Below, in pieces: positions 3,296 through 58,673 of a DNA stretch of 64,000 nt (positions are counted from its first letter, which is position 1; each line of letters opens with the position of its first letter). The stretch is from Eledone cirrhosa (lineage: Eukaryota). Below the pieces are notes generated by a model. It worked only from the letters and a program-made list of their open reading frames with translations, was not told the origin of the DNA and did no database searches. Location: NCBI GenBank assembly GCA_964016885.1, contig OZ024748.1, positions 31,744,001-31,808,000 of the forward strand, read 5' to 3'. A program made the translations under genes and the position numbers.

Positions 3296-4134
3296 GTATG
3301 TATTAATTTTAATTTTAATTGTAATTTCTGTTTACCTATAATTATATTCTATTATAGATAAAATACAATATCTATTTTAATTATTATAAACCTAATTAAC
3401 ATATACTATAGAAATTAATATATAATTTTTAATTTAGTTAACCTATAATTTATATTCTACTACCGATGTAATACTTTATTTGTTTTTCCCTATTACTAAA
3501 TTCATTTCCTAATATTGATACCATAACGTTAATAATTTTAATTTAGTTATACTATTTAACTTCAAAATTCCGTTTCAAATATTATAAACCTAAGTAGTAT
3601 ACACCTTAGAAATCAATATATTAACTATCTTTTGTTTAGTTAACCTATAATTAATGGTATACTTATATTGAAATGCATAATTTTGCCTTCTTTCTTACAT
3701 TTCCTAATACTGAAACTATGTAAACACATATTATGATCTAAATGCAGATTAATATTCTATGTTTCTTGAAACCTATATTTACTATAATCCCCTCCCCCCC
3801 CTCCCCCCCCCCTACTATTATTATTTGTATTTGTAAGCGTGGATGTATGTATGTATATGTAGGTAGGTATGTATGTTTGGGTGTTTGTATGTGAGTATAA
3901 AAATACATATGTGCGCATGTAAATAAGGGTGTATGATTGTGTGTATATATATATATGTATATATATATGTATATATGTGTGTGTATATATATATGTGTAT
4001 ATATATGTGTATATATATATGTATCTATGTATTTATGTGGGTATATGTGTGTATGTATATGTATGCACATGTATATGTCTATGTGTATATGTGTGTATGT
4101 GTATATGTGTACGTATGTGCGCATGTATATGTGA

Positions 4135-4205
<71 letters not shown>

Positions 4206-4412
4206 TATTTGTAGTTGATGTGTGTATGTGTATATATATATATGTATATATATATATATGTATATATATATATGTGTATGTGTATATATATATGTATATG
4301 TATGTGTGTGCATATTTGTCTGACTGTGTGTATTAATTTATTTATTTATTTATTTATCTTATTTATTTATTTTTTTATATATATGTATATATATTATCTT
4401 CATATATATATG

Positions 4413-4463
<51 letters not shown>

Positions 4464-4787
4464 GTGTGTATGTGTGTGTATATGTATGTATGTATGTATG
4501 TATGTGTATGTGTGTTTGTGTGTGTACGTGTGTATATATTTATATATGTATATGTATCTCTATTTATATATGTATATATGTGTATGTATATCCCTTTGTC
4601 TATGTATGTCTGAGTTGTGTGAGCGTGTGGTGGTGTTTGTTTGTATGTATATACGCATACATGGATGTGTATGTATGTGTATATATGCGTATATGTATGT
4701 GTGTATGTGTGTGTGTGTATATAGGTATGTCTATGTATGAGTATGTATGTGTGTGTATGTATGTGTGTATATATATGTATGTGTGTG

Positions 4788-13974: not shown

Positions 13975-14009
<35 letters not shown>

Positions 14010-14013
<4 letters not shown>

Positions 14014-14210
14014 TATAGACATAGAATATTCGAAAATATTCTGTATGTTTATAATAAACATTTTGAAGACCTAATCGCTATAGAATAGAATACGTCACGT
14101 ATTACAATTATATTCTCGATAAAAGCAAGGGAAGTAATCTACGCGTTTCATTCTTGTTAGAAATCATCAGGACTACATATCCAGTGCTTTTATCGAGAAT
14201 GACACAGCTA
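14010..14210 (-). mobile_element. Inverted partial copy of the 310-bp unit, with HHR
   Basis: Reverse complement of ~14228-14428; tcatcag at 14164-14170. Confidence 0.9.
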
Positions 14211-15387
14211 AGTATTCTATAAGTCTCTAGCTGTGTCATTCTCGATAAAAGCACTGGATATCTAGTCCTGATGATTTCTAACAAGAATGAAACGCGTAGA
14301 TTACTTCCCTTGCTTTTATCGAGAATATAATTGTAATACGTGACGTATTCTATTCTATAGCGATTAGGTCTTCAAAATGTTTATTATAAACATACAGAAT
14401 ATTTTCGAATATTCTATGTCTATATTCACATATATATCGCTATTTCAGAGCATTTATTCCAATTTCTAATTTCTGCCGGACCGGCAACCGCTCTTTCAAA
14501 CCAGTTCCTGTACATAGCTAAGTATTCTATAAGTCTCTAGCTGTGTCATTCTCGATAAAAGCACTGGATATGTAGTCCTGATGATTTCTAACAAGAATGA
14601 AACGCGTAGATTACTTCCCTTGCTTTTATCGAGAATATAATTGTAATACGTGACGTATTCTATTCTATAGCGATTAGGTCTTCAAAATGTTTATTATAAA
14701 CATACAGAATATTTTCGAATATTCTATGTCTATATTCACATATATATCGCTATTTCAGAGCATTTATTCCAATTTCTAATTTCTGCCGGACCGGCAACCG
14801 CTCTTTCAAACCAGTTCCTGTACATAGCTAAGTATTCTATAAGTCTCTAGCTGTGTCATTCTCGATAAAAGCACTGGATATGTAGTCCTGATGATTTCTA
14901 ACAAGAATGAAACGCGTAGATTACTTCCCTTGCTTTTATCGAGAATATAATTGTAATACGTGACGTATTCTATTCTATAGCGATTAGGTCTTCAAAATGT
15001 TTATTATAAACATACAGAATATTTTCGAATATTCTATGTCTATATTCACATATATATCGCTATTTCAGAGCATTTATTCCAATTTCTAATTTCTGCCGGA
15101 CCGGCAACCGCTCTTTCAAACCAGTTCCTGTACATAGCTAAGTATTCTATAAGTCTCTAGCTGTGTCATTCTCGATAAAAGCACTGGATATGTAGTCCTG
15201 ATGATTTCTAACAAGAATGAAACGCGTAGATTACTTCCCTTGCTTTTATCGAGAATATAATTGTAATACGTGACGTATTCTATTCTATAGCGATTAGGTC
15301 TTCAAAATGTTTATTATAAACATACAGAATATTTTCGAATATTCTATGTCTATATTCACATATATATCGCTATTTCAGAGCATTTAT

Positions 15388-15393
<6 letters not shown>
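14206..15393 (+). mobile_element. Retrozyme-like tandem array, 3.8 x 310-bp units, one HHR per unit
   Basis: agtattctat recurs at 14211, 14521, 14831 and 15141. Each unit has gtagtc-CTGATGA-tttct-aaca-agaat-GAAAC-gc-GTA-gattac (cores at 14268, 14578, 14888, 15198). Confidence 0.9.
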
Positions 15394-16773: not shown

Positions 16774-16968
16774 AGTTTTAATATAGAAGAGATTCTACAG
16801 GACTAGAACTGTTTCATTCATTAGAAATGATCAGGAGTCCTGATGATTTCTAATGAATGAAACAGTTCTAGTCCTGTAGAATCTCTTCTATATTAAAACT
16901 GTTATACTCTGCTATGTATTGAGTACCTTACTTACTGTGGTTACCTCCGATTCAACCCGGAATAACGT
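16774..16968. mobile_element. 127-bp near-perfect palindrome (centre 16837) of two head-to-head HHR copies, plus tail
   Basis: Plus strand CTGATGA(16840)-tttc-taat-gaat-GAAAC(16859). The minus copy retains stem I caggact/agtcctg but has a CTGATCA core. Confidence 0.8.
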
Positions 16969-20401: not shown

Positions 20402-20617
20402 GTATGTATATATATATATATTGTATATATACATATATATATATATTGTATATATATATATATATTTATAAGGGTTAAAATACTGGAGCGTGTTGGAGTT
20501 AAACACCCTCTTCGTATTATAGAAATGACAGTAAAAGGTATAGCTCAATGTAATTAAACAGAGCCGAAGAATTATGAAAGTAAAACAAAGAAGCCTTCAA
20601 TACATCAAAAGTCTTTA

Positions 20618-20662
20618 TTAGCCAACAATGTTTCGTCCTATTAAGGACTCATCAGGGCAATT
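20618..20662 (-). ncRNA. Canonical minimal hammerhead ribozyme
   Basis: Reverse complement gcc-CTGATGA-gtcc-ttaata-ggac-GAAAC-att-GTT-ggc. Confidence 0.88.
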
Positions 20663-20849
20663 AAAACAACAAGAAGTATTATCCACCAATACAAGCCGGA
20701 AACTCCGAAAAATATGGAGTGTACATACAGTAAAGTATTGCAAGATTATGGGTAAAAATATATAATAAAAATATATAATAAAAATCACTAAGGAGGTGTA
20801 TAACATTTAGAACCATATTACAAATATAGTCCAAAGCAAAAAAAGAAGA

Positions 20850-22410
20850 AGCATAATAAGAAGAAGCTTTATAAGTTTTTTGAAAGCTATAACATTTCGA
20901 TCACGATAGATAGAAATGATAGAGTGGTTAACTTTCTAGATGTGACTTTGGTCTTGGTCACTAATAGTTTTAAACCCTTCCATAAGCCTAATGAAATACC
21001 TTCTTATGTTAGTCCCAATTCTAACCACCCCAAATCTATGATAAGCTCTATAATTAAGGGTGTATCTAATAGGATTTCCACAATCTCTAAGGACGTAGGA
21101 ACATTTAATGAACATGCGGAGTACTATAATAATGCCCTTGCAAATTCCGGTTACTCTAGTAAAATACATTATAATAATAGTAACCTTAGAAAGTCTCCGC
21201 TTACTTTTAATAATAATAACATAATATCACATAACATGGCCATGAATGGGAGTAGGAAGCATAATAACCGTAAAAATTACATAGGTGTATCTGAACCCAT
21301 CCATAAGTTAACCCACGGGACTCGTAATAGTGAATATAATACCTCTAGGAAACAAGTCGAACCCTCTGAGCGCTCACTCATTGGTGATAGTTTTGCTAGA
21401 TCTTATTCTAATAATGTTTCTTCTACTGATCCTATTATTGGCCCTAATCCCTTTGATGGGATTCCAGACAGCAGCAGATCTACTGGAGGTAGAAACGGTA
21501 ATAGACTTAATGGAATTTTGGCTGATTCTAATAATGCGGTTTTAACTAATCCTTGTAGTATCCCTAGTCTTGATGGTGGGATATTAGATAATGGTAGAGT
21601 CGGTAAGAATAAAAATAGAAGGAGATTAAATACTTATTTTAACCCGCCATATAATCAGGAAGTATTAACTAATATCCCTAGGTCTTTCTTTTCTATCTTA
21701 GAGAAAAATTTCCCCCCTTCTCATAAATACCATAGTATTTTAATAAAAATGTTATTAAACTTTCATTCTCTACCACCTCTAATATTAGTTCTCATTTAGC
21801 TAGCACTAACAATAGGAAAATTAGGGATGGATCCTCCTCTCTACATACTACTAGTCTGAACAGATCTGGAAATGCATTACCACCAGAACAGACCTTATCT
21901 AATAGCAATCCTACGTGTAATGCATCACCACTTGAGCCAACCAATAACACCCGGAAGTGTAACTGTAGAGTGAGTGCTAACTTCCCTTTAAACGGTAACT
22001 GTCTCTCTAAGAACATTGTCTATGCTTGCGTAGTTATAACTAATTCCTCTAATAGAACTTATATAGGCTCTACATCTAACACTTTTAAGACTAGGTTTAA
22101 CTCTCATATCTCTAATTTCAAACATGTTAAGTTTAAGAATTCTACTTCTTTAGCACATTATATCTGGGATCTTAAGGGGGCTAATATACCATATAGCCTT
22201 AACTGGCGTTTAGTAGCACGCTCTAATAACCTTTCTACACATACTAAATTTTGTAATCTCTGTATCCTTGAGACACACTCTATAATTTTCTCTAGCGAAT
22301 CCTTACTTAATAGAAAGTCTGAGATATTCTCTTCTTGCCTCCACGCTATTTCTAATTCTTACTTTTATTATAAACCTAAAGGTTCTAGTAGTACAAATTG
22401 TATCCATTAG
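20850..22410 (+). pseudogene. PLE RT C-terminus/thumb, expanded linker and GIY-YIG EN (frameshift near 21745)
   Basis: VNFLDVTL, FKPFHKPN..YV...SNHP, YFNPPYN, KCNCR, IVYAC...YIGST..FKTRF..H, LNW, CNLC. Confidence 0.9.
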
Positions 22411-24151
22411 CTGATATATTCCATTACTTATTTTTTGGTTTAGGTTCTTTTGTTTACCACCATTATTATCATCATTATTATCATTGGTTTTTGACAACTC
22501 TTTATTCTAGCTCTCATAATCTTTTGGCTACTATACCATATCTATCTTCTTACGCATTAAATTTTCACTATTAACACCTTATGAGTATATATCTGATTAT
22601 ATATTTTACATTATTTTATTTTATTTCATTTATTTTATTTCATTTTTTTTATTTTATTTTTATTTTATTTGGATTCTTCTTTGGATACCCCCCCCCACTT
22701 CCCCCCTCCCCCATGCGCACATAAACTTATTGTCAACCCCTCCAAATAGATTATGATTATATTTAATCCCCCCCTCTTTTACGCTCCTTTCTATTATTTA
22801 ATATAGTATATTGACTATGATTTTATGCCCCTTTGTATCCTCCATATATTTCTTAATTTCTGTCCCTATTAGCCTACCATAATTCTGCTTAAGTCAGTTT
22901 TTTTAGATATCGTTATGTATATGATAGTAGAAAATTTCATTCCTTTTTGTAAATATTTGTAACGAAATATTAACGTTTATAAACTTTGATTACTTAAACC
23001 ATAGCTAATATTGTATTGCCTTATTGGATATTTTAAATATTTTTAATATTAATTTATCAAATAGGGTTTTCGAGTCATTTACCGGGGTTATTTCCTAAGT
23101 TTTTACTTAACTGCATGTGAGACCTAAATGTATACTTTTGTTTTTGTTTTTTAATTTCCGGTTGATTCTATTTATTTATTTTATTTTATATTTTATTTGT
23201 AATACTACTGTACATTATATTTACTGTCTGGCCCTTACTCACTCATCCACATATATGTCTGTTTACCAACCTTGTAATTATAAGTAATTATATATTATAT
23301 TATGTTAATTATTTTATATTATATTGTATTTGTTATTGTAATATCGATCCTTATTACTTACCGTTGATTATATGTAACATTGTGATATGTTAAACTTTAT
23401 ATACAATGTAAGATGTTTATATTTTTGTACCATCATAATTTTGGGTATTGTACAATTTATTTTTCCTCACCTATTCTGTAACTCTATATGAATTGATTTG
23501 TTAACTTGAATGCCATTATATATTGTATATTATATATGTTATTATAGTATTATTGTGACATCTATATTGTGTGTGTAAATTAACCGGAGATTATCTATTC
23601 TATTATATTATATTATATAGTATATAATTGTATAGTTTATTATATATTATATGTGCTACTTATAATAATATCATATTATTACCTCATGTATATTGGGTAT
23701 ATGTATTATTATTATTTTTTTTTTTATTCCTATCATGCTTATTTATATTTAAACTCTTAATAAGGTTTAATTTGTGCTGTTGAAGATGGATAAGTGTATT
23801 GATATATGTGTATGTGTCCGTACGTGTGCGTACATATATACATATGTATATTGTACCTTTTGATTTTTATTGTAATTTTAATATTGGTAAAGGTATATTA
23901 TATTATATTATATTGTATTATATATAATTCCTGCTCTATATAACCACCTTTGTTTAGCTCTAGGGTTATTTTTGCTTTGGACTATATTTGTAATATGGTT
24001 CTAAATGTTATACACCTCCTTAGTGATTTTTATTATATATTTTTATTATATTATATATTTTTACCCATAATCTTGCAATACTTTAGTGTATGTACACTCC
24101 ATATTCTTCGGAGTTTCCGGCTTGTATTGGCCGATAATACTTCTTGTTGTT

Positions 24152-24198
24152 TAATTGCCCTGATGAGTCCTTAATAGGACGAAACATTGTTGGCTAAT
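24152..24198 (+). ncRNA. Canonical minimal hammerhead ribozyme
   Basis: gcc-CTGATGA(24160)-gtcc-ttaata-ggac-GAAAC-att-GTT-ggc. Confidence 0.9.
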
Positions 24199-24499
24199 AA
24201 AGACTTTTGATGTATTGAAGGCTTCTTTGTTTTACTTTCATAATATATATATATATATATATATTGTGTGTATATATATATATATGTTGTATATATATAT
24301 ATATATATATATATATTGTATATATATATATATATTGTATATATATATTTATATATATATATGGTATATATATATATTGTATTTATATATTGTATATATA
24401 TATATTGTATATATATATATATTTTATATATATGGTATATATATTGTATATATATATATATATATTGTATATATATATATATATTGTATATATATATAT

Positions 24500-31477: not shown

Positions 31478-31561
<84 letters not shown>

Positions 31562-31568
<7 letters not shown>

Positions 31569-32265
31569 CGTCCCTTCACGCACAAGGCGCCAAGGTACGC
31601 ATGTATTGTCCAACCAAGTGCCAGTGTGGTTCAATGGCGGGTTAATAAATTAACGAGCCAGAACAAATATAAACAAGGTTTAGTAAATAATGAAAAAGTT
31701 TCAAGATAAATTTTAAAAAATTGACTTTACCTACTATAGTTACCTTTACCGATCGGTTTCGAATCCCAAAAATAAAACGGAGACCATACGGCCTTCGTTG
31801 CAAAGAGAGATTCTCGTCAGATGGTTCTTTTCATTCAAAGAATATAAAATTCCTGAATTTAAATCACAAACTAGCGCTATCAAAGACTGTTCCTGGGATG
31901 AGAGTGGATGATGTAGAACAGGTTTATCAAGGGCCGTAGTAAAGATAGAGGCAAAAGGAGGTAGGTCAAACTAGCCACCGCTGTTGTCAGCAGCAGTCGG
32001 AATGACCCGGTTTGTTCTCAACGTTTGTGGAGGTAGTAGTAATATGAAATACGTCCCTTCACGCACAAGGCGCCAAGATACGCATGTATTGTCCAACCAA
32101 GTGCCAGTGTGGTTCAATGGCGGGTTAATAAATTAACGAGCCAGAACAAATATGGTCTCCGTTTTATTTTTGGGATTCGAAACCGATCGGTAAAGGTAAC
32201 TATAGTAGGTAAAGTCAATTTTTTAAAATTTATTTTGAAACTTTTTCAATATTTACTAAACCTTG

Positions 32266-32270
<5 letters not shown>
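31562..32270 (-). mobile_element. Retrozyme-like element: ~1.2 x 483-bp unit plus inverted piece (32151-32270)
   Basis: tgaaatacgtccc at 31562 and 32045. 32151-32270 is the reverse complement of ~31668-31788. Confidence 0.85.
31742..31825 (-). ncRNA. Hammerhead ribozyme with extended stem II
   Basis: Reverse complement accat-CTGACGA-gaatctc...gggattc-GAAAC-cgatcg-GTA-aaggt. Confidence 0.82.
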
Positions 32271-32297
<27 letters not shown>

Positions 32298-33723: not shown

Positions 33724-33765
<42 letters not shown>

Positions 33766-34034
33766 TTTTGCGAGGTTTTTTATATGAAATCGTGTGTCGA
33801 AACAAATATTGTTATACTTGGGGAGGGTCATATTTGTATAATATTGCCAGAATTAATAACAGAACACACTCACTGTTTGGTTGGTTTTCGCTTCTCGCTG
33901 TCTTTTATATCGGTAATCTAACTTACTCCGTCCTCAATGTTGCCATTGACTGACCGACGGTCAAAAATAATACAGATACACTATAGACACAAACGACACA
34001 AGCCGAACGACTAAAACACACAATAACAGTTAAT

Positions 34035-37000
34035 ATGAAAAGAACAACATACACAAATGTCAACGCACTCTACAGACAGAAACGCATTAACGGTAAGGAA
34101 ATCCGAAATCTCATCACAGCAAACGAGAGAGATAACTTCATGAGTGTCATCCGATGTGAAACGAAATACGCTCGAAACGAATGCAATAGGCATTTCAATA
34201 AGAAATTAGAATGGATGAAATAGAAAAAACCACAAGAAAGGAAAATCGAATATTCTCAAAAATACCCAGATAACATCGACAATATCCGTATGACTGATGT
34301 AAAACTACCGGAAGAATTTACCAATGACCACACAGTAAATATCTATGGGAACACTTTAATCAATGAACAAGAACAACAAATCCTGCGGCTACCACCAAAA
34401 TATGCCATCTACAAAAAGATTAACCCTATGGAGTGCAAAACGGAGCTGGAAAAGTGTTTCACAATAATACGTTGGAATGCAAAGGTAAACAACAACAACA
34501 ATAATAACGGTAGTAGTAATATAAATAATAACTCTGAGTATAGAAATAACAGCCTTAACTATATCAATAGCAGGAAAGTGAGAAATAGTGATAATGGTAA
34601 TAATACTAGCGATAGACAGAACAACAACAACCACAATAATAATAATAATAGAAACATTAACCACAGACACAGCAGCAGCGACCACAGTAGTAATAACGGT
34701 AACAATACGAACAACAACAACAATAACCACAGTGGTAATAATGGAAATAGTACATGTAGCAACATCAATGATAGACACAACAAAAACAAGAAACATAATA
34801 AAAGTAACAACCACAATGGTAGAAATAACAGTAACAACAACAACAATAACGGTGAAGTAAACAACAATACATCTAGCAATCATAACAATAATAATAATGC
34901 TAATGATAGAAACAACAACAACCACCCTGATAAAAATAATAGCAACACACAACTATGACGATAGATATAATGACAACCCCTTAGAGAAACTATTTTTCAA
35001 CCCAGCTGACAAAACATATAAGATGGGTAATATCTATCCTACGAGGTTACCCTTTAATAAAAGAGTTTGCATACCACAACAAATAGATGACGAGACAGAG
35101 GCACAGTTCACCATAGCTAGAAATAAGATTAGACAAATAGTAGACAGGTATACTAAGAGACAGAGCAGACCAGAGGCCCAACAACTTGGGAGGAAACCTG
35201 TAGAAGGCTTGGTTAGCCTCAAGCAGCGCACAAGGGATGGTGAGGTAGTGTGTCTTCCCACAGATAAGTCTGGTAGGATGTCAATAGATAGCATGCCGAA
35301 CTACATCGAGGCTATGCAACCCCACATCACCAGCACGAGCGAAATTGCACAACAAACACACGATGGGAGAGAAAAAATCCTCAACGCTCACATGATGATG
35401 TGGACTGACATCCTAAAGCCAAGCAGACGCACTGCCAACAACTTCCAGGCGTTTAACAATGGCATACCACCCATGTATGGGCTCCGCAAAGACCACAAAA
35501 CAGTCGACGACCCGACAACAGGACCACCAACAAGAGCCGTATGCGGAGCTAATATAGCTAGCAACTACAGGATCTCCTACTTCCTCTCAATGGTTATACG
35601 CCCCATAATCAAGATGTCCCCAGATGTATGTGACAGTACAGAGGACCTCCTCAGCAGAATCAGTGAGTGCAACAAAAACGGGAGCCTATCCAACTGCATA
35701 ATAGGCAGCATGGATGTGGTGTCACTGTACCCATCCATTAACATTGATTTTGCTGTGAAAAGATGTGTGGAGATGATCATTGAGAGTGAGGTGGAGTTCT
35801 CGACGTCGACACAGACGAACTAGGCCTCCTACTTAGACTTACCTACGACACTGACTACCTAGACAGCCATGACCTTAGATGTTTCTGCCCTAGTAGACCT
35901 ATAAGAGGTAGAACCCCCACCATAACCTCAATGGCAAAAAAGACTCCCATGGGAAGGTGGATTGGGTGGACCAAAGCTATACGGACCCCCCAAAACAATG
36001 ATCAGGTAAGAAAAATGGTCGCACATGCAATAGGGGCTAGTATCAAAACTACCCTACTGGGCCACATATTTAAGTTCAACAAGAAAATCTACACCCAAAA
36101 TGAGGGAGCAGCCATCGGCGTCAGCATAGCTGGTGATGTTGCCAACCTTTTTATGGTATGGTGGGAAAGGAGACTTAAAGATCTCCTTAATGAAAGCTCC
36201 ATAGACCTCATCATGTACTCTCGTTATGTAGACGATATCAATATAGTTATAAGAACACCCCCACTAGAGAGCACTAACAAGTTTGATTTAGAACGTAGCA
36301 CAATGGAAAGCATCCAGCAGATAGCTAATTCCATACACCAGAGTATAACTGTAACTATCGACTTCCCTTCCAAACACCCTAACAATAGACTACCTGTATT
36401 AGACACAGAACTCTGGATTAACACTATAGACGAGAGAGCCCAAATTCTCCACTCACACTATGCTAAACCCATGGCCTCCAAATACCTGATACTAAAAAAC
36501 TCAGCAATATCCAGTAGTGCTAAGTTTAATATTCTGATCGCAGATTTGGTACGAGTGATAAAGAATGTGTCCCCCATGTGCGACCCAACAGAAATGGAAA
36601 GACACATCCAACACTTCATCAACCGCATGCAGTTCTCTGGCTACAACCAAAGAGACAGAGTCAGAGTATACGAAGGAGCCATGGAAAATTATAAGACCCT
36701 CATAGAACTGGACACGAAAGGAATTTGCCCATTATACAGGAGCAAATCATGTAATAGATTAGATAGGGCTAGACATAAGATAGGGAAAGCCACCTCATGG
36801 TACGACAACCAGAGATACCAGAGTGTCATGTTTTGTGGACGCCACCCCTGGAGGGAAATTAGCTAACCAGTGTAGAAAGGCCCTGAGAAAGACCCACTTA
36901 AAAATAAAGGTGGTAGAAAAGCCAGGAACCACCATAAAATCCCTGATCAGCAAAACCTACCCTTTTAAGAAAACCCACTGTACCAACAGGAAATGTATCA

Positions 37001-37383
37001 TATGTAAGGTGAACCCCCGGATAAACTGTAAAACTAGAAACGTAGTCTATAGCATAATATGTACTGAGGGTACTTGCAGAAACATGACAACAACATACAT
37101 AGGTGAGACAGCTCGTAGCATAGGTGAAAGGATAGACCAGCACTGGGGGGAACTAAAAGGACGAAAAAACGGGTCAGTACTATACGAACATGCTAGACAA
37201 CAACATGACGATAACATAGACAACATAGAAATTAGAATAATATCTAAACATAGAAATGACCCAGCAGATAGGCAAATCAGAGAGGCCAGTGAAATAGAAA
37301 TTAGAAGACCAAGGCTAAACAGAAAGAATGAATGGAATAACAACAACACCCAAACAAAAAACACTGACCCAAGAGAAGTATGA
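34035..37383 (+). pseudogene. PLE RT + GIY-YIG polyprotein, broken by a stop and about 3 frameshifts
   Basis: PTDKSGR, MYGLRKDHK, SMDVVSLYPSI, GAAIG...ANLFM, YSRYVDDI, LPVLDTELW, CTNRKCIIC, CKTRNVVY...YIGETARSIGER..QH. Confidence 0.93.
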
Positions 37384-37593
37384 ATAAGTAAATAAAATAA
37401 GATAAATAAATACATACACAAGCACATAAATACACACTAGTCATCCATCACACAGCAAACAACACTATACACACACGCAAACGCATGCGCAAAGAAGACA
37501 AAATAAAATAAACAAACAAGCAAATAAATAAATAAATATATAGACAGACTGAATAAAAATGGCGTAGACATACAATACAACAGGAGGAAAATA

Positions 37594-37660
37594 TAACACC
37601 ACTGAAGATGTTGCAGATGTGCAACGAAAGATTTATGATAAACTATATATATGTGTTTGT
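37594..37660 (+). ncRNA. Probable degenerate hammerhead
   Basis: CTGAAGA(37602)-t-gttgca-gatg-tgcaac-GAAA. Stems I and III are imperfect; the position matches that expected in a PLE 3' end. Confidence 0.5.
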
Positions 37661-37858
37661 GTCTATATTGTATCTGTATTATTTTTGACCGTCGGTCAGT
37701 CAATGGCAACATTGAGGACCGAGTAAGTTAGATTACCGATATAAAAGAGAGCGAGAAGCGAAAACCAACCAAACTGAGTGTGTTCTGTTATTAATTCTGG
37801 CAATATTATACAAATATGACCCTCCCCAAGTATAACAATATATATATATATATATATT

Positions 37859-37893: not shown

Positions 37894-38326
37894 ACATATG
37901 TAGGAGGTGAGTTTTATTGTACTAAAATAAAGCAATGCAGATATCGGATAAGAAGCACTCTACAGTTGGACTGGAGTATAAATAATATCAAAAGATGGTT
38001 AAAGGAGTTCCATGTATTTTATTATGCGCATTTCAAAACCAAATATCATCATGCAATAACATTTGCATTTTCGTCAGATAAAATAGGTAGACATGACATG
38101 AAGGTTAAAACACACTTGTGAATAGTGCAGTTTTAAATCAACATATATATGATATGTTGATTTAAAACTGCACTATTCACAAGTGCGTTTTAAACTTCAT
38201 GTCATGTCTCCCTATTCTATCTGACGAAAACGCAAATGTTATTGCATGATGATATTGCATGATGATATTTGTTTTTGAAATGCGCATAATAAAATACATG
38301 GAACTCTTTTAACCATCTTTTGATCT
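37891..38326. mobile_element. Palindromic non-coding insertion (centre ~38149) with two HHRs (38015-38085 minus; 38213-38296 plus) and tail on the left
   Basis: tattYtat-CTGACGA-aaa..caaat...atttg-tttt-GAAA-tgcgca-TA-ataaaata. Confidence 0.85.
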
Positions 38327-38538
38327 TATATATTATATTGTATATATATATATATACAATATTTTAAATATATATATATATTGTATATATATATATATAT
38401 ATATTGTATATATATATATATATTTTATATATATTTTATATATATATACATATTGTATATATATATATATATATATATATTTTATATATATATATATATA
38501 TATTGTATATATATATATATATATTTTATATATATATA

Positions 38539-39178
38539 TACCTCTCATTTATACTTATACTCGGATTCTTTTCCTAGAGTGCTTAAACTATCTGTGACTA
38601 ATCCCGGTTTTTTATAAAAACTGTGATAATTATTGCTATTTGCTGAACTCCTTTTGTAGAGTTTTTTTCAGAATGTATTTGACTGCTATTTCTTGTAAAT
38701 AAACATTCACTTTCATCCTGACGTCACTAGCCCCGTTTTTCCTCATGTGCTTTTTCATAATTACACATGATGGCGAACTAGCCAGTTTTAAAATTCCCTT
38801 TTTCGGATTATAATACTGTGAGAGCCCTGGTTTCAGTTGAGCTCTGCTGACGATTGAAATCCAACCGTGAGCATCTCCACTGAAAGTTTTCATGAAATAG
38901 TCTTTTAAGACTATACAGAGCATTTGATGTTATTCCAAATTGAAGGATAAGTGTTTTAAACTTTATTTTATCATGAATTAAAGGTCTATTGATATTTGCC
39001 TGGATTTCACTAAATTCTGTGGATGAATTTATATCCTGATTCTCTTTTGAGATGAGTTTGAATTACTTTTCCTAAATCTTACGTTAACTACTTTTCCCAT
39101 CTTGACGTTATAGTCGCATATATGTTATAGAATACTATTAGCTTCTCGCTAAAACAATCTCTATACCTCTCATTTATA
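38539..39178 (+). mobile_element. Retrozyme-like ~625-bp unit with terminal redundancy (tacctctcatttata); HHR 38841-38921
   Basis: gctctg-CTGACGA-t-tgaaa...tttca-t-GAAA-tagtct-ttta-agacta-TA-cagagc. Reverse complement of the 55223-55850 unit. Confidence 0.85.
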
Positions 39179-45471: not shown

Positions 45472-46077
45472 ATGTCAAGGAATTTACCTTCTAATACCAG
45501 AACAAGAACTCTCCCTCCCACAGTCCACAAAGGTCGTCAAATCCTACTCAAACCATCATCTACACCTCTCACAACACACACACCCACATACCCACCCACT
45601 CGAAACCCCATCATTTGCCGCTACTCTCTACGCTATAGAATATGTACGGATAGTGGCTGCAAATTCACTCATTTACCTAAGACAAAACGATCTATCCCCA
45701 CAAACAGCCACCACCATAATACATACTCTAATTTAACACCAACACAACCACCAATAACTCAAACAAGGAATCCACAAATCTGCCGCTTTTCCCTGCGAGA
45801 CAGATTGTGTTTAGACCGGGATTGACCCTTTACCCATCTCCCGGGGACCCGTCGGACAAATGAAAATAAAATTAAAAATAAAAGCAAAAACAAAAACCAT
45901 AACCTACATAAAAATAACCACTACCACAGTCACCAACAGTCTTCTAAACAGGAAACTTCTTCCTCTTTTTTAGCCATAATGAATCTGGCAAAAGAACTGG
46001 AAAAAAACATTCAAGCTATCACCCAGCACCACCCTCCACTATCACCCCACTGCACAAACTCCCATTGCTGCCATTAA
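45472..46077 (+). CDS. ORF1 (or its remnant) with two CCCH zinc fingers; in-frame TGA at 45823-45825
   Basis: CRYSLRYRIC-TDSG-C-KFT-H and CRFSLRDRLC-LDRD-*-PFT-H. The frame stays open to TAA 46075-46077. Confidence 0.65.
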
Positions 46078-49000
46078 CAAACAAACAAATTAACAACACA
46101 CCAAAACAATTCAAACCATCCACTCTCGCCTCTACATTTTTGCTTAACGCCCAAGGCATCAGCCCTTCCACCAATACTCAAAAATGGAAGATCAAATTCC
46201 TGGAGGACTGGATTGATGTCCATCCAAACCACATCCCTTTCTTCGTCCTCACTGAAACCCATCTCAGTAACCTCCACTTGGAAGCCGAGGTGAAAGTGAA
46301 AAATTTCAAAGCCAGCCGTGCTGATCGCGCTGGCAGAAGAAAGGGCGGAACTGCCATTTATGTCCATAATTCTTTCTCAACAGAGGCTATGAACATATTC
46401 ACTAATGGATACTGTGAAGCAGTCACTGTATTCAGTCAAACCAACAACCTAATAGTAGTTGGGCTCTATAGGCCACCCCAAACGCCTGTACCATGCTTCA
46501 AGGAATGCCTCAACAGCATAAAGTGTTTCATCCAAGAGTGTCACCCTGACAACATCTTAATGATGGGGGACTTCAACCTCCCCGGAGTTGACTGGTCCAC
46601 AAACAGCCTGCCACCAGGTTCTTCTGCCTCAACCTCTGACAGGGAAGCAGTGGAATCGCTTCTTGACTTCATGGATGATTTCTTCCTATCCCAACTGGTG
46701 CTCGAACCAACGAGGTGCCACAAAAACGTCCTAGACTTAATTTTCAGCAATCACACTGACAATATCCACAATATTGCAGTGGAGAAAACTCTACTCTCTG
46801 ATCATGACATGGTTCTCTGTGATCTGAGATTCCACCGTCCAATATACAAACCCAATGTCATCTCTCCTGTCCATCCGTTTGACGCTATGGATTTCCACAA
46901 TGCAAACTGGGAAGCGATCAGTCATGATCTTGCACATGTCGACTGGTCCTTCACGCACACTCATACACCCACTAACATCAAAAAGTCCTGGCAGACATTT
47001 GTGGACACTGTTACAAACATATGTGCTAAACACACCCCATTAAGAACTATAAACAAATCTAAGAGCAGAATCCCTAGAAATAGAAAAACGCTCATCAGAA
47101 AAACTAAGAGAACGAACAAAAAAATCAACAAGCTGAAATACTGTCAGCAGCAACACATCAACTTGACTGCCATTTCATCACTAGAGATTAAAAAACATAA
47201 CCTCCAAAACAACATAATGTCCCTCATCAACGATCAGAGAAGAGCTGAAGAGGCCTGGGCCATTGAGAAGATCAAACTCAATCCCAAAGTGTTCTTTTCA
47301 TTTGCAAAAAAACACAAAATCACTGGCTCTACTGTTGGCCCTCTAATTGATGAAAATGGCACTCTTCAAGACAATGCTAAAACCATGGGTGAGATACTGC
47401 AGAAACAATACTGCTCTGTTTTCAGCAATCCTGATATGGCCGATCTGGACTGTATCGGCGATGTTACTCCCCATTACACCTTATCGGACATAACGTTTGG
47501 CGCCCCTGATGTCTTGGCGGCAATAAAGGAAATCAAGCATAATTCAGCAGTAGGTCCCGATAGGTTCCCTGCTTGTGTCCTGAAGGCGTGTCAACACCAA
47601 CTTGCTTCTCCTCTTGCCAATCTGTGGCGGAACTCACTGGATGCTGGATATGTGCCAGAAAACCTTCTATCCCAGTCTGTTGTCCCAGTTTTCAAAAAGG
47701 GAAACAAATCCCTTGCCGTGAATTACCGTCCAATCTCACTCACCTCTCATATCATTAAGGTATTTGAGAGAGTGGTGAGATCGCGAATGACCCACTTCCT
47801 TGAGAGTAACAATATGCTGAACTCCAACCAGCATGGGTTCCGTAATGGAAGGGATTGCCTGACGCAGCTACTGCATCACTTTGATGACATTTTGAGAGCC
47901 TTGGGAGAGGGTTCCAACACTGATGTTATCTACCTTGATTTCAGCAAGGCCTTTGACAGGGTTGATCATAACATTCTACTGAGAAAGCTGTCCAATATTG
48001 GTGTCACTGGAAAGCTGCTGCAGTGGATCAAGAGCTTCCTGTCAAACAGAACCCAACATGTTGTAGTTGAAGGAGTCAAATCCAGCCCAGCCAAAGTCAG
48101 TAGTGGGGTCCCACAAGGCACTGTGTTGGGCCCACTTCTCTTCATCATCTATATTAATGACATCACTGACATCATCAAACACAGCAACATTAAAATTTTC
48201 GCTGATGATTCCAAGCTCCAAAAGGTCATCAATGGCGTGGATGACCGGATAAGCCTTCAGTCAGACCTACTGGCTGTTACCCAATGGGCGGAAAAGAACA
48301 ACATGTTACTGAACGAAGACAAATTCGAACTGATCCACTTTGGAAAAGAGGATGCTCTGAAACTCCCGTACTCCCTTCCCTCCGGGGAAACTCTCGTGGC
48401 ATCTAACAACATCAGAGACTTGGGAGTAACCGTGGACAGCAACATAAGCTGGACCACGCATATAAGCAGCAAAGTTGACATGGCCCGCAGAATGTGTTCC
48501 TGGATCCTCAGAACCTTCCAGTCGAGAGATTCCCACACCATTATCATTCTCTTCTCTACTTTTGCCCGACCACACCTTGAATACTGTTGTCCACTGTGGT
48601 CTCCCCACACGAAACAAAGTATCATGAAACTTGAAGCTCCTCAAAGGGCAATCACGAAAAAGATAGATGGCATGTCAGACCTTGACTACTGGGGTCGATT
48701 AGAAAACCTGAAACTTTACTCACTCCAACGTCGCCGTGAGCGTTATATTATCTGCATGATGTGGAAAATGTTTCATCATCACTGCCCAAATGATGTTGGC
48801 ATCGCCTTCAAGATACACCCAAGGCTTGGGCCCCGTGCTATCCGTCCCATTCAAAAATCTAAATCGCAACTCATAACAACAATACGGCACAATTATTTCA
48901 CCTCAATCGGCCCTGCTCTCTTCAACATCACACCAGGACACGTCAAAACAGAAACTGACCACACAAAATTCAAGAAGTCTTTGGACAAATTCCTCCAAGT

Positions 49001-49085
49001 AATCCCGGACAAACCACCCACACCCGGATATGTCTCCGCAAACAGTAATTCTCTTCTCGAATGGGCCATGGTGCCCAAATCCTGA
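46065..49085 (+). CDS. ORF2: apurinic endonuclease + reverse transcriptase
   Basis: LNAQG, LTETHL, YRPP, MGDFNLP, LDLIF, SDH; YRPISLTS, QHGFR, YLDFSKAFD, GVPQGTVLGP, FADD, DLGV. Uninterrupted 1006 codons with no ATG before the APE domain. Confidence 0.95.
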   Translation: MLPLTNKQINNTPKQFKPSTLASTFLLNAQGISPSTNTQKWKIKFLEDWIDVHPNHIPFFVLTETHLSNLHLEAEVKVKNFKASRADRAGRRKGGTAIYVHNSFSTEAMNIFTNGYCEAVTVFSQTNNLIVVGLYRPPQTPVPCFKECLNSIKCFIQECHPDNILMMGDFNLPGVDWSTNSLPPGSSASTSDREAVESLLDFMDDFFLSQLVLEPTRCHKNVLDLIFSNHTDNIHNIAVEKTLLSDHDMVLCDLRFHRPIYKPNVISPVHPFDAMDFHNANWEAISHDLAHVDWSFTHTHTPTNIKKSWQTFVDTVTNICAKHTPLRTINKSKSRIPRNRKTLIRKTKRTNKKINKLKYCQQQHINLTAISSLEIKKHNLQNNIMSLINDQRRAEEAWAIEKIKLNPKVFFSFAKKHKITGSTVGPLIDENGTLQDNAKTMGEILQKQYCSVFSNPDMADLDCIGDVTPHYTLSDITFGAPDVLAAIKEIKHNSAVGPDRFPACVLKACQHQLASPLANLWRNSLDAGYVPENLLSQSVVPVFKKGNKSLAVNYRPISLTSHIIKVFERVVRSRMTHFLESNNMLNSNQHGFRNGRDCLTQLLHHFDDILRALGEGSNTDVIYLDFSKAFDRVDHNILLRKLSNIGVTGKLLQWIKSFLSNRTQHVVVEGVKSSPAKVSSGVPQGTVLGPLLFIIYINDITDIIKHSNIKIFADDSKLQKVINGVDDRISLQSDLLAVTQWAEKNNMLLNEDKFELIHFGKEDALKLPYSLPSGETLVASNNIRDLGVTVDSNISWTTHISSKVDMARRMCSWILRTFQSRDSHTIIILFSTFARPHLEYCCPLWSPHTKQSIMKLEAPQRAITKKIDGMSDLDYWGRLENLKLYSLQRRRERYIICMMWKMFHHHCPNDVGIAFKIHPRLGPRAIRPIQKSKSQLITTIRHNYFTSIGPALFNITPGHVKTETDHTKFKKSLDKFLQVIPDKPPTPGYVSANSNSLLEWAMVPKS

Positions 49086-52712: not shown

Positions 52713-52780
<68 letters not shown>

Positions 52781-53658
52781 GACAAGGGGGAAGAAAAAAT
52801 GGCTTCACTTGTGCTTTCAACAAATTTATTTTCTTCACAAAATCCAAAAAGAATTTTTCTTAAAAAAAATTATTTTATAAATTAAGTTGTTGGTTGTTGG
52901 TTAGGTCTTAGGAGTTCTTGGTTAACGTAGGAGGTATTGTTTCGTTTTTAGAAAGACCTTTCACGCTGAGGTGCGCTTGTCAAACTGATGTGCATGTGGT
53001 GTGTTGTTCTATATATAGGGATTTAACATGTCTGTCGTGTGGTAGGGCTTTCTTTTCTCCCCCTTTAATAAGTGCATGGGTGTAGGTGTGTTGAAAAAGT
53101 GTTCATAGCAGTAATGAGTTGAGACGGTGAGTAGGGTTGGGTGGGGAGAAACTTAGCAAGTGCGGCCTGCCCCGGTCATTCTCGAAAAATTCCTTTATTC
53201 AGGGGAAAAAGCTTTTAGCATCGCTTTTGTGTTGAGAATGGTCACAGGCAAATCGCACCTGTCAAGCTTGTGAATAATTATTTTTTTCTTTTTTTCCTGA
53301 AGAATTTTTCTACGTCCATCCCAAAGTTAGTCCTTTGTTCAACACACACATATATATGTGTGCATATATTTACATACACACACGGGCATATGTAGGAACA
53401 TATAGGCACACACCATCAATCACACGCCCCTGTACAAATACACACACAAAAACATATAGAGACACATATAAAAACACATATACACATACGTACACACAAG
53501 AATATGTACACATACCTCCACATGGGTATATATATATATATATACACATATATACACACATACATACACATATACATACATACATATACATATATATATA
53601 TATATATAAATATATATACATACACATACACATGCACACACATACACACACACACATA

Positions 53659-53689
<31 letters not shown>

Positions 53690-53830
53690 ACACACACATA
53701 TATATATATATATACATATATACATATATATATATACATACATATATACATACATATACCTACATACACATACATACATATACACACATAAAGATACATA
53801 ACTAAATATACATATATACACACATACACG

Positions 53831-53893
<63 letters not shown>

Positions 53894-53957
53894 ACACACG
53901 CACGTGTGTACACACATACGCACGTGTGTACACACACACACGCACACACACACACAC

Positions 53958-54040
<83 letters not shown>

Positions 54041-54159
54041 TACATATATATATATATATACATATATACATACATATACCTACATACACATACATACATA
54101 TACACACATAAAGATACATAACTAAATATACATATATATACACATACACGCACACCCCT

Positions 54160-54961
54160 CACATACGAAAAGGAACATTCCCTTCAACATGGCAAGGCGC
54201 ATCTGCACTATAGCAACACACCCCGTACTACAAGAAAAAAGATTATGTGACCTGAAAAAATTCCTTAAAAAACAAGAATACCCGATGAAACTCATCAACG
54301 CAGCCATCTCCAAGGCTAAGAACATCCCAATAACCACACTGAGAAAACCAAAGCCACAACATAAAAAAGAAAACCCTGCTATCTCTTTTGTCATCACTCA
54401 CAACCCAGGGAACATCAACATTGTGAAAACTGCTAAGCTGTATCTCCCGATTCTACAGCAATCTACCAAAAAAACACACAGATAATTTATAGCAGACGCC
54501 AAGCAGCCAACCTTAAAAAACTAATTACCAAGGCAAAATTTACGACCAACATGGAATCAATGCAAGTGACGAAATGCGGGGACCCTAGATGTGGAACCTG
54601 TGAACGCATCGAAGAGGGCAAACAGTTGTCATTCAAAAACCATGATAATTTCAAGGTCAATGCTAACATGAACTGCAAAACGAAAAACCTAATGTATTGC
54701 GCAACATGTCCACAGTGTAAAGAGTATTACATTGGGGAAACCGGAACGGGATTACATGATAGAGTCCGGGTACATAAACAACAGATTAAAGACCCCACAG
54801 TCAGAAATACCACATGTAGCGCACGCTTTGCATCATGCGGGAAGGGAAAATTCACAATATTCCCTTTCTTCAAGATATGGTCGGATAACGAACATTTCCG
54901 CAGATATAAAGAAGAATTCTTCATTGAAAAATTTAAACCACTACTGAACACGAAAAAATGA
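54160..54961 (+). pseudogene. PLE thumb/linker + GIY-YIG EN (Neptune-like), frameshifted
   Basis: HTKRNIPFNMARRICTI, CGDPRCGTC, CKTKNLMYCATCPQCKEYYIGETG..LHDRVRVH, FKPLLN. Confidence 0.9.
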
Positions 54962-55142
54962 ATTAACACTCGGAGGTAAAATTCCATTTCACTACCCCCC
55001 CCCCCCTCTTCTTATGTGTACACATGAATATCTGAATGAACGGTGAGACACACACATATATGTGTGTAGGGATGTATGGATGTATGTACGTGTGGGTATA
55101 TATGTATGTGGGTGTGTGTATGTGTGTGTGTGTGTGTGTGTA

Positions 55143-55220
<78 letters not shown>

Positions 55221-55227
<7 letters not shown>

Positions 55228-56131
55228 GAGAGGTATAGAGATTGTTTTAGCAAGAAGCTAACGGCATTCTATAACATATATGCGACTATAACGTCAAGAT
55301 GGGAAAAGTAGTTAACGAAAGATTTAGGAAAAATAACTCAAACTCATCTCAAAAGAGAATCAGGATATAAATTCATCCACAGAATTTAGTAAAATCCAGG
55401 GAAAATCTATAGAACTTTAACTCATGATAAAATAAAGTTTGAAACACTTATCCTTCAATTTGGAATAACATCAAATGCTCTGTATAGTCTTAAAAGACTA
55501 TTTCATGAAAACTTTCAGTGGAGATGGTCACGGTTGGAATTTCAATCATCAGCAGAGCTCAACAGAAAACCAGGGCTCTCACAGTAATATAATCCGAAAA
55601 AGGGAATTCTAAAACTGGCTAGTTCGCCTTCATGTGTATTTATGAAAAAGCACATGAGGAAAAAACGGGGCTAGTGACGTCAGGATGGAAGTGAATGTTT
55701 ATTTACAAGAAATAGCAGTCAAATACATTCTGAAAAAAACTCTACAAAGGAGTTCAGCAAAATAGCAATATTATCACAGTTTTTATGAAAAAAACCGGGT
55801 TTAGTCACAGATAGTTTAAGCACTCTAGGAAAAGAATCCGAGTATAAATATAAATGAGAGGTATAGAGATTGTTTTAGCAAGAAGCTAACGGCATTCTAT
55901 AACATATATGCGACTATAACGTCAAGATGGGAAAAGTAGTTAACGAAAGATTTAGGAAAAATAACTCAAACTCATCTCAAAAGAGAATCAGGATATAAAT
56001 TCATCCACAGAATTTAGTAAAATCCAAGGAAAATCTATAGACCTTTAACTCATGATAAAATAAAGTTTGAAACACTTATCCTTCAATTTGGAATAACATC
56101 AAATGCTCTGTATAGTCTTAAAAGACTATTT
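55221..56131 (-). mobile_element. Retrozyme-like tandem, ~1.45 x 628-bp unit; HHR 55477-55558(-)
   Basis: taaatgagagg at 55223 and 55851. Reverse complement gctctg-CTGATGA...GAAA-tagtct..agacta-TA-cagagc. Confidence 0.88.
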
Positions 56132-56134
56132 ATA

Positions 56135-56187
<53 letters not shown>

Positions 56188-56419
56188 GGATAGATATGTA
56201 TGTTTATGTGTGTTTGTATGTATGTGTATGTACCTATATATATGTGTGTGTGTGTGTATGTATGTGCATATATGTACATATGTGTGTACATGTGTGTATG
56301 TTTCTGTTTGTGTATATGTATGTATGTATGTAGATGTATGTGCGTGTATGTGTGTGTATGTATATGTATGTGTATGTGTATGTGTATATGTGTCTTTATG
56401 TGCTCGTGTATACGCACAC

Positions 56420-56497
<78 letters not shown>

Positions 56498-56570
56498 ATG
56501 TGTGTATGTATGTATATGTGTGTATGTGTATATATATGTATATGTATGTGTATATATATGTATATGTATG

Positions 56571-56630
<60 letters not shown>

Positions 56631-56631
<1 letters not shown>

Positions 56632-56886
56632 CACAGAGGAGACTGAGGTTGGCTGGACATGCTCACCGACATCCAGAGTTGACATTGCACTCAGTGCTCC
56701 TTTGGGAGCCCCGACATGGGCACTCTAGAAGAGGAAGACCAAGGTTAACATATGTTGATGCCCTAAGGACAGACACTGGTCTGTTGGAGATGCAGGATAT
56801 GGCAGCGATAATGAGGGACAGAGACCGCTGGAGAGAACTCGTCCATGGATCTCGGGAATTTTACCCGCCTTAGATAGATAGATAGA
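56631..56886 (+). mobile_element. RTE-clade LINE 3' fragment with (TAGA)n tail
   Basis: RRLRLAGH...[18 protein letters not shown]...DRDRWR*, a typical RTE ORF C-terminus. Confidence 0.85.
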
Positions 56887-57166
56887 TATATATGTATGTA
56901 TGTATGTACATATATGTGTATGCATGTATTTGTGTATGTATGTACTTGTATGTGTATATGTATGTGTATGTGTATGTATGTGTATATATATACATATGTA
57001 TGTATATATATATATATGTGCATATGTATGTGTGTGTGTATATATATGTATATGGATATGTATGTATGTGTATATGTATGTGTATATGTGTGTATGTGTC
57101 TGTATGTATATATGTGTACATATGTGTATATGTATGTGTATGTATGTGTGTGTATATGTATATATA

Positions 57167-57254
<88 letters not shown>

Positions 57255-57281
57255 TATATATACATATAAAGAGAGAGGCAT

Positions 57282-57329
<48 letters not shown>

Positions 57330-57630
57330 GTGTGTGTGTGTGTGTATGCCTCTCTCTTTATATGTGCATACATATATATAGATGTATGGGTGTATGTGTG
57401 TGTATGTATGCATGTATGTGTAAATGGAGGGGTATATATACGGACATATGTACATGTGTGTGTGTGCGTGTGTGTGTGTACACACGTGCGTGTGTGTGTG
57501 TGTGTGTATGTGTGCGTGTATGTGTGTATATATGTATATTTAGTTATGTATCTTTATGTGTGTATATGTATGTATGTGTATGTAGGTATATGTATGTATA
57601 TATGTATGTATGTATATATATGTATATATG

Positions 57631-57729
<99 letters not shown>

Positions 57730-58391
57730 ATGTGTGTGTGTGTATGTGTGTGCATGTGTATGTCTACGTATATATATTTATATATATATATATGTATATG
57801 TATGTATGTATATGTGTATGTATGTGTGTATATATGTGTATATATATATATATACCCATGTGGAGGTATGTGTACATATTCGTGTGTGTACGTATGTGTA
57901 TATGTGTTTTTATATGTGTCTCTATATGTTTTTGTGTGTGTATTTGTACAGGGGTGTGTGATTGATGGTGCGTGCCTATATGTTCCTACATATGCCCGTG
58001 TGTGTATGTACATATATGCACACATATATATGTGTGTGTTGAACAAGGGACTAACTTTGGGATGGACGTAGACAAATTCTTCAGGAAAAAAAGAAAAAAA
58101 TAATTATTCACAAGCTTGACAGGTGCGATTTGCCTGTGACCATTCTCAACACAAAAGCGATGCTAAAAGCTTTTTCCCCTGAATAAAGGAATTTTTCGAG
58201 AATGACCGGGGTAGGCTGCACTTGCTAAGTTTCTCCCCACCCAACCCTACTCACCGTCTCAACTCATTACTGCTATGAACACGTTTTCAACACACCTACA
58301 CCCATGCACTTATTAAAGGGGGAGAAAAGAAACCCCTACCACACCACAGACATGTTAAATCCCTATATATAGAACAACACACCACATACAC

Positions 58392-58432
58392 ATCAGTTTG
58401 AAAAGCGCACCTCAGCGTGAAAGGTCTTTCTA
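58392..58432 (+). ncRNA. Candidate hammerhead, U3-A8 core (inverted copy ~52950-52988)
   Basis: TTGAAAA (TTGACAA in the other copy)-gcgc-acctca-gcgt-GAAA-ggtc-TT. Stem I is weak. Confidence 0.4.
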
Positions 58433-58636
58433 AAAACGAAACAATACCTCCTACGTTAACCAAGAACTCCTAAGACCTAACCAACAACCAACAACTTAAT
58501 TTATAAAATAATTTTTTTTAAGAAAAATTCTTTTTGGATTTTGTGAAGAAAATAAATTTGTTGAAAGCACAAGTGAAGCCATTTTTTCTTCCCCCTGTCT
58601 TAATATACCTAATAGTACCAAGGATTACACACATTT

Positions 58637-58673
<37 letters not shown>

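What the first reader, a model, noticed from the sequence alone, without database searches (positions are those of the whole stretch)
55221..56131. 628-nt circularly redundant HHR element at two loci with the same 3' end
Seen: 1.45 units here (minus) and one unit plus a 15-nt overlap at 38539-39178 (plus). Both end at ...cctctcatttata, then (TA)n, where the unit itself continues with TA-like sequence. The HHR has a stable 6-bp stem III. Inference: reverse transcription is primed at a fixed TA-like site on a circular or multimeric RNA and runs past one full turn. The size is large compared with the ~150-400-nt animal retrozymes I recall.
Basis: partly seen in the sequence, partly recalled or inferred. 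Interest (0 to 1): 0.75.

Follow-up and report, generated by a model that had tools for sequence, protein, structure and literature searches.

The report
Single-ended hammerhead retrozyme in TA repeats
This is one of over a thousand insertions of a non-coding 628-base repeat that carries a predicted self-cutting RNA motif and nearly always ends at the same internal point inside a TA repeat, likely because a borrowed Penelope-type enzyme starts copying there on a circular or uncut multi-unit RNA; it is a new family of a known kind of jumping element.

Summary
Observation confirmed. 55221-56131 (minus) is 1.45 units of a 628-nt repeat; 38539-39178 is one 625-nt unit plus 15 nt (95% alike). The genome holds at least 1018 exact copies of the same end before (TA)n. 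In 83 loci picked by internal motifs, 85 of 87 copies end there; 5' ends scatter. The end lies 262 nt past the predicted type I hammerhead cut, and only 2 of 126 passes stop at the cut, so the template was not a simple cut monomer. A 75%-alike subfamily keeps unit length, end and hammerhead (two compensatory changes). An autonomous Penelope-like element (PLE) in the same window shows the same kind of fixed TA-like ends; the 55221 copy sits antisense in its 3' UTR but is not part of it. Best reading: a PLE-mobilised non-LTR retrozyme with internal target-primed initiation. Circle versus uncut multimer is unresolved; cleavage, expression and the partner PLE are unshown. The size is not unusual (51-972 bp in a 2026 preprint). 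This scan already reported the same pattern for other families in this and other genomes; this family differs in being mostly one-armed, and one insertion joins it head-to-head to a different retrozyme.

The parts
55221..56131 (-). Retrozyme insertion, 911 nt, 1.45 units
55221..55848 (-). Full 628-nt unit (U1 = 55848, U628 = 55221); 33% GC; longest ATG ORF in a dimer 37 codons sense, 45 antisense
55849..56131 (-). 5' partial unit U346-628; begins inside the hammerhead core, 21 nt upstream of the predicted cut
55477..55558 (-). Predicted type I hammerhead; predicted cut between 55483 and 55482, 262 nt before the fixed end; long loop II with an inner 3-bp hairpin
55821..55844 (-). Hairpin just past the fixed end in the RNA (U5-28), predicted in all five subfamily representatives folded; candidate start signal (inferred)
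55151..55220 (.). (TA)n target tract at the fixed 3' end
38539..39178 (+). Second copy: 15-nt overlap (38539-38553) plus 625-nt unit (38554-39178), TA tracts on both sides
38841..38921 (+). Predicted hammerhead of the second copy (CUGACGA core; predicted cut 38915/38916)
52773..58644 (+). Context, not part of the element: Neptune/Nematis-type PLE (GIY-YIG ORF pieces 54126-54958, TA-rich 3' UTR, inverted 5' arm) with two fixed ends 37 nt apart; the 55221 copy is nested antisense in its UTR

Best explanation
This is a non-coding tandem-repeat family with a predicted type I hammerhead, over a thousand insertions and one fixed 3' end in (TA)n, and it is likely a non-LTR retrozyme copied in trans by a Penelope-like element's endonuclease and reverse transcriptase. 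Inferred steps: the enzyme nicks a (TA)n tract; the DNA end primes at one internal site of the RNA (U628, 4-5 nt of TA-like match, between two predicted hairpins); copying runs through the hammerhead site and past one full turn and stops at scattered points, often at TA-like matches. The template is most likely the ligated monomer circle (about 0.45), next an uncut multimer (about 0.35). Very long arrays grew later by DNA-level duplication.
For: Shown: 85 of 87 chains in 83 C1 loci chosen by internal motifs end at U628, the other two are inverted 5' arms; 1018 exact ends and 641 unit junctions genome-wide; 36 of 83 main copies exceed one unit, 6 of 30 in a set chosen by the end; 2 of 126 passes stop at U360-370; 65 of 83 5' flanks are TA-like. 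75-85% alike subfamilies keep length and end (15 of 20 by exact motif) and show compensatory pairs in stems I and II. Family-wide variants are all-or-none within arrays, 66 shared by all units against 9 in one unit; units differ 0.49% within and 1.34% between arrays. An autonomous PLE of the same genome ends at fixed TA-like internal sites (400 exact ends), and a PLE protein initiates internally in vitro (PMC11167929). Inverted 5' arms, a PLE trait (PMC8557442), occur.
Against: No PLE sharing sequence with the unit was found in 1.03 Mb of fetched loci or in 30 further loci, so the partner is unnamed. Stem II has pair probability at most 0.09 and stem I is unpaired in the fold of the 38554 copy; Rfam does not score the motif; only 1 of 9 predicted retrozymes cut in vitro in the 2026 preprint. 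No strand-biased A-to-G excess among array-shared variants (7 A>G, 7 T>C). L140 has arms meeting at U301/U302 over 2.6 units, which a linear multimer explains more simply. Some copies end elsewhere: U200 in L023, U332 on C1636, about 14 nt past U628 in the 81-unit array. In the anole PLE the start site has no match to the target, unlike here.
Confidence: 0.85

Rival explanations
1. Same PLE machinery and start site, but the template is an uncut linear multimer read from tandem loci; the hammerhead is slow or conditional and no circle is needed.
For: Weak stem II; uncut RNA was the dominant substrate for the anole PLE; L140 arms abut at U301/U302 across 2.6 units; arrays of 5-81 units exist as possible sources; no stall after whole turns (hazard 1.3 per kb at U529-628 against 1.9 overall).
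Against: All-or-none haplotypes (66 to 9) and 14 variants private to one array yet in all its units need a one-unit bottleneck. The only in-register sharing of unit-specific variants (L106, L119) is between different haplotypes and one variant recurs at three single-unit loci. The hammerhead is conserved with compensatory changes.
Confidence: 0.35
2. Template is the cut linear monomer; the enzyme jumps from the 5' end of one molecule to the 3' end of the same or another.
For: Three copies begin at U363-368 (L025, L128, L130); 5' ends are enriched in U180-354, just past the cut site (49 of 83, p 3e-4, interval chosen after looking).
Against: 124 of 126 passes cross the site; U363-366 is itself a TA-like match; no insertions or deletions seen at the site in aligned units; jumps between molecules would mix haplotypes.
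Confidence: 0.08
3. It is a detached terminal repeat (pLTR) of an unfound autonomous PLE, or a satellite spread by DNA-level events alone.
For: 24 of 57 Xenopus retrozyme families match known elements, 21 of the 22 being PLEs, at their ends. DNA-level growth is real here: an 80.8-unit array and two arrays with a two-unit period, one marked by a variant found only at that locus. One copy (L123) is fused to a PLE end.
Against: 23 of 71 loci have an RT or endonuclease hit nearby, in mixed orientation, of several families and none adjoining; 1 such fusion among 162 5' junctions; dispersed, 5'-truncated, polarised copies in TA tracts do not fit satellite spread.
Confidence: 0.07

Closest known systems
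Metazoan non-LTR retrozymes (Cervera and de la Pena 2020, PMC7229834; review PMC7761336; Li, Clavereau and Pollet 2026, bioRxiv 10.64898/2026.07.22.740005)
   Same: Non-coding, low-GC tandem units with one type I hammerhead each; monomers to long arrays; no LTR; PLEs in the same genome; stable helix III as in most invertebrate cases; size inside the 51-972 bp range.
   Different: Larger than the 170-400 nt circles shown by blot; long loop II. The parts read propose target-primed copying of circles by PLEs but do not map insertion ends; here one fixed end is mapped. Cleavage and circles are shown there, not here.
Endonuclease-bearing PLEs: PAc of Anolis (Frangieh et al. 2024, PMC11167929); Neptune, Naiad, Hydra (Craig et al. 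2021, PMC8557442)
   Same: Internal start of reverse transcription defines genomic ends; 5' truncation; partial tandems; inverted 5' arms; AT-rich or (TA)n targets.
   Different: No ORF; one dominant end instead of two sites a 'tail' apart (a second site 49 nt upstream, U579, is used by 2 of 5 inverted arms); the start site matches the target by 4-5 nt.
Non-autonomous Chlamys PLEs such as MRC1 (PMC8557442, passage)
   Same: Non-autonomous, multicopy head-to-tail insertions, microsatellite targets.
   Different: Those resemble their autonomous partner at the 3' end and lack canonical hammerheads; here a full hammerhead is present and no partner match was found.

Membership tests
Non-LTR retrozyme | Tandem repeat with a type I hammerhead in at least two consecutive units | tested here: met
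   Arrays of 2-81 units with the core in successive units; helices supported
Non-LTR retrozyme | Non-coding, GC below 50%, no long terminal repeats | tested here: met
   33% GC, longest ORF 45 codons; unit is tandem, not LTR-framed. PBS and PPT were not searched for
Non-LTR retrozyme | Unit size | tested here: met
   625-645 nt, within 51-972 bp; above the 170-400 nt of PMC7229834
Non-LTR retrozyme | Hammerhead self-cleaves | not testable with these tools
   Core intact and covarying but stem II weak
Non-LTR retrozyme | Expressed as circular RNA | not testable with these tools
   Only contigs of runs of unrecorded kind were available
Non-LTR retrozyme | Target-site duplication longer than 4 bp when present | tested here: inconclusive
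   TA tracts on both sides hide it; one long direct duplication seen by eye in L032; not counted
PLE-mobilised element | Fixed 3' end from internal initiation, 5' truncation | tested here: met
PLE-mobilised element | Two start sites 30-40 nt apart ('tail') and inverted 5' arms | tested here: inconclusive
   Five inverted arms seen, outer ends U579 twice, U484, U301, U628; exact U579+TA pattern has 20 matches, 13 inside one array, against 1018 for U628
PLE-mobilised element | Sequence shared with an autonomous PLE's terminal repeat | tested here: inconclusive
   None in 1.03 Mb of loci and 30 more loci; only a few PLE families were sampled
Autonomous PLE | RT plus GIY-YIG ORF within the unit | tested here: not met
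   No ORF; neighbouring ORFs belong to separate insertions

The most novel reading that the evidence does not exclude
The insertions are direct footprints of a PLE enzyme doing target-primed rolling-circle reverse transcription on a 628-nt ribozyme circle from one defined internal site, and the two DNA ends of one break can each copy a different retrozyme RNA, as the head-to-head 628/310 chimera (L265) suggests; the start site and its two flanking hairpins would then be a portable signal for writing a circular RNA into TA repeats.
Probability: 0.4. Interest if true: 0.65.

Novelty: new member of a known kind. Interest (0 to 1): 0.4.

Why it matters
The papers read propose, but in the parts read do not show, that PLEs copy retrozyme circles into the genome. 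This family gives a defined substrate for that test: one start nucleotide, a known target, young copies (99% alike) and young TA-targeting PLEs with open 796-codon frames in the same genome. It is otherwise one of many such families that this scan has already noted, so it adds a variant (one-armed, with a mixed-family chimera), not a new class.

Tried and rejected
Rfam scan: no family at gathering score. RNA evidence: no RNA holder listed; six runs of unrecorded kind, four laid as contigs, which show the family and its divergent subfamily in organism A and small pieces in B and C but nothing on expression. Partner PLE by sequence: none; the family followed up proved to be another short hammerhead repeat with its own fixed TA-like end. 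A-to-G editing scars (lead e1-8803689): array-shared rare variants are richer in A>G and T>C than unit-only ones (14 of 21 against 29 of 125, p 1.5e-4) but without strand bias, so not read as editing. Dimer circles as the cause of two-unit periods: the marks are private transversions and the one tested occurs only at that locus; read as DNA-level duplication. Apparent alternation in L064 and L076 was gap placement in homopolymers and was dropped, where columns near gaps and copies under 96% identity were left out. Pile-up at the cut site or after whole turns: not seen. A regular second end at U579: rare. L022, L083, L084 and L089 looked like foreign arms but are inverted copies of the flank across the TA tract (L022 checked in full, the others from the hit lists). 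Supplements of the 2026 preprint could not be seen; its family tables may hold related elements, though it sampled no mollusc by its methods text. Supplements of PMC7229834 (model figure S9) were not read.

Full report
Observation. The minus strand of 55221-56131 has period 628 with 281 of 283 overlapping bases identical; 38539-39178 (+) is a 625-nt unit preceded by 15 nt of its own end and is 94.8% alike. I number the unit U1 = 55848 to U628 = 55221. Both copies end CTCTCATTTATA and run into (TA)n. The hammerhead is type I: stem I U291-296 with U367-372, CUGAUGA, a short stem II closing a long loop, GAAA, stem III of six pairs plus the A-U pair, predicted cut after U366. Rfam does not score it. 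The whole unit folds somewhat better than shuffles (z -2.4, 20 shuffles).

Family. The host is a 3.0-Gb, TA-rich genome; earlier notes call it cephalopod, which I did not test. Exact patterns give 836 hammerhead cores, 976 matches just downstream of the cut, 641 unit junctions and 1018 ends followed by TA, with 0 in reversed controls. To avoid choosing copies by their end I fetched all loci behind the first 100 listed core matches (71 loci on C1) and the 12 further loci in the first 100 matches of the downstream motif. Of 87 chains in these 83 loci, 85 end at U628; the two others are inverted 5' arms. 5' ends scatter; 36 of 83 main copies exceed one unit and 65 of 83 have a TA-like 5' flank. 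In 30 loci chosen by the end, 17 are shorter than 262 nt, 13 cross the cut site and 6 exceed one unit. Exceptions outside these sets: ends at U200, U332 and about 14 nt past U628.

Deep conservation. Twenty loci with the junction motif but not the exact core are 73-91% alike subfamilies of 610-645 nt; 15 of 20 show the same end by exact motif. They were chosen by the junction, so conservation of the junction itself is circular, but the five 84-86% copies chosen by the core end there too. Across 12 hammerheads 93.9% of helix cells pair, and one pair each in stem I and stem II changes on both sides; each is probably a single event. Most young copies have A-U at the base of stem II where the window copies have U.U. 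Stem II stays weak in whole-unit folds (at most 0.09), so activity is not assured.

Template. The fixed end lies 262 nt after the predicted cut. Only 2 of 126 passes stop at U360-370, so the template was continuous across the cut: a ligated circle, an uncut multimer, or very efficient jumping. For a one-unit template: family-wide variants are carried by all units of an array in 66 cases and by one unit in 9, and 14 variants private to one array are in all its units (93 arrays of at least 96% identity, about a tenth of the family, so 'private' is a sample statement); units differ 0.49% within and 1.34% between arrays. For a multimer: weak stem II, no stall after whole turns, and L140, whose two arms meet at U301/U302 over 2.6 units. 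In-register sharing between L106 and L119 is best read as recurrent mutation. 5' ends are enriched at U180-354 (49 of 83, p 3e-4, interval chosen after looking), unexplained. Two-unit periods in L118 and L133 and the 80.8-unit array point to later DNA-level growth.

Machinery. The 55221 copy lies antisense in the TA-rich 3' UTR of a PLE that spans 52773-58644; 29 other copies of that PLE lack it in the 1.5 kb after the stop. I call the PLE Neptune/Nematis-type from a GIY-YIG hit and an upstream CxxxxCxxC motif described for those clades; no tree was built. That PLE ends at two fixed TA-like sites 37 nt apart inside its own 5' region, with 400 exact ends at one: the same kind of end as the retrozyme, in an autonomous element. 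No PLE sharing sequence with the unit was found. 23 of 71 loci have an RT or endonuclease hit nearby, none adjoining; one of 162 5' junctions is fused to a PLE end. Five inverted arms end at U579 (twice), U484, U301 and U628; U579 is rare genome-wide. L265 joins this family head-to-head to the 310-nt family, which suggests shared machinery and that two arms need not come from one RNA; it is a single case.

Literature. Seen: bioRxiv 10.64898/2026.07.22.740005, parts 1-3 of 5 (abstract to discussion) and a term search; PMC7229834, parts 2-4 of 6; PMC11167929, parts 1-2 of 4; passages of PMC8557442, PMC7761336 and PMC9977147. They define non-LTR retrozymes, give sizes of 51-972 bp, propose PLE-driven copying of circles into tandem cDNA, and show internal initiation by a PLE protein. 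In these parts, and in the listings of six searches, I saw no mapping of retrozyme insertion ends; subscription journals and supplements were not covered. Hammerhead numbering and the twin-priming comparison are from memory.

Verdict. Real, well supported as a PLE-mobilised non-LTR retrozyme (0.85), new member of a known kind. The scan has noted the same pattern in other families here and in other genomes (79 notes hold the search words), mostly two-armed with two ends; these are unchecked notes and no support. Interest 0.4; 0.65 if rolling-circle copying from the single site is shown.

Noticed in passing
L265 (G000:C12:22644000-22653000), 3628-4625: Two-armed insertion of two different retrozymes: U467-628 of this family joined head-to-head, without TA between, to 2.6 units of the 310-nt family; both outer ends run into (TA)n.
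   Followed up: yes
window 14001-15393: 310-nt hammerhead repeat, 3.8 units plus an inverted arm, two ends about 34 nt apart.
   Followed up: partly
window 52773-58644: Neptune/Nematis-type PLE whose 3' UTR is itself about 1.3 kb of TA/TG-like sequence; two fixed TA-like ends 37 nt apart; copies elsewhere have open 796-codon frames.
   Followed up: partly
G000:C2:376628991-376679375: 80.8-unit (50 kb) array of a 92-93% alike subfamily, with signs of higher-order repeats, ending about 14 nt past the usual end and not in TA.
   Followed up: partly
window 31559-32272 (minus): Another circularly redundant element (period about 483) with a hammerhead-like core near 31820, between TA tracts.
   Followed up: no
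window 16774-16968, 20470-24243, 37978-38333: Further hammerhead-like cores in fold-back pairs at TA tracts, one pair (20655 minus, 24160 plus) framing PLE ORF pieces.
   Followed up: no
window 33762-37841: PLE of another family with an inverted 5' arm and two ends; L123 has this family's end fused directly to the 5' end of a 628-family copy.
   Followed up: partly
L022, L058, L083, L084, L089: Short inverted copies of the flank on the far side of the TA tract, as if the cut TA end folded back before joining.
   Followed up: partly
L022, L098: Tail-to-tail pairs of this family in one TA tract.
   Followed up: no
L276-L305: Another repeat with a minimal hammerhead, 1426 exact motif copies, with a fixed TA-like end of similar look.
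   Followed up: partly
window 45948-49082: Open 1045-codon endonuclease-RT frame of a LINE.
   Followed up: no
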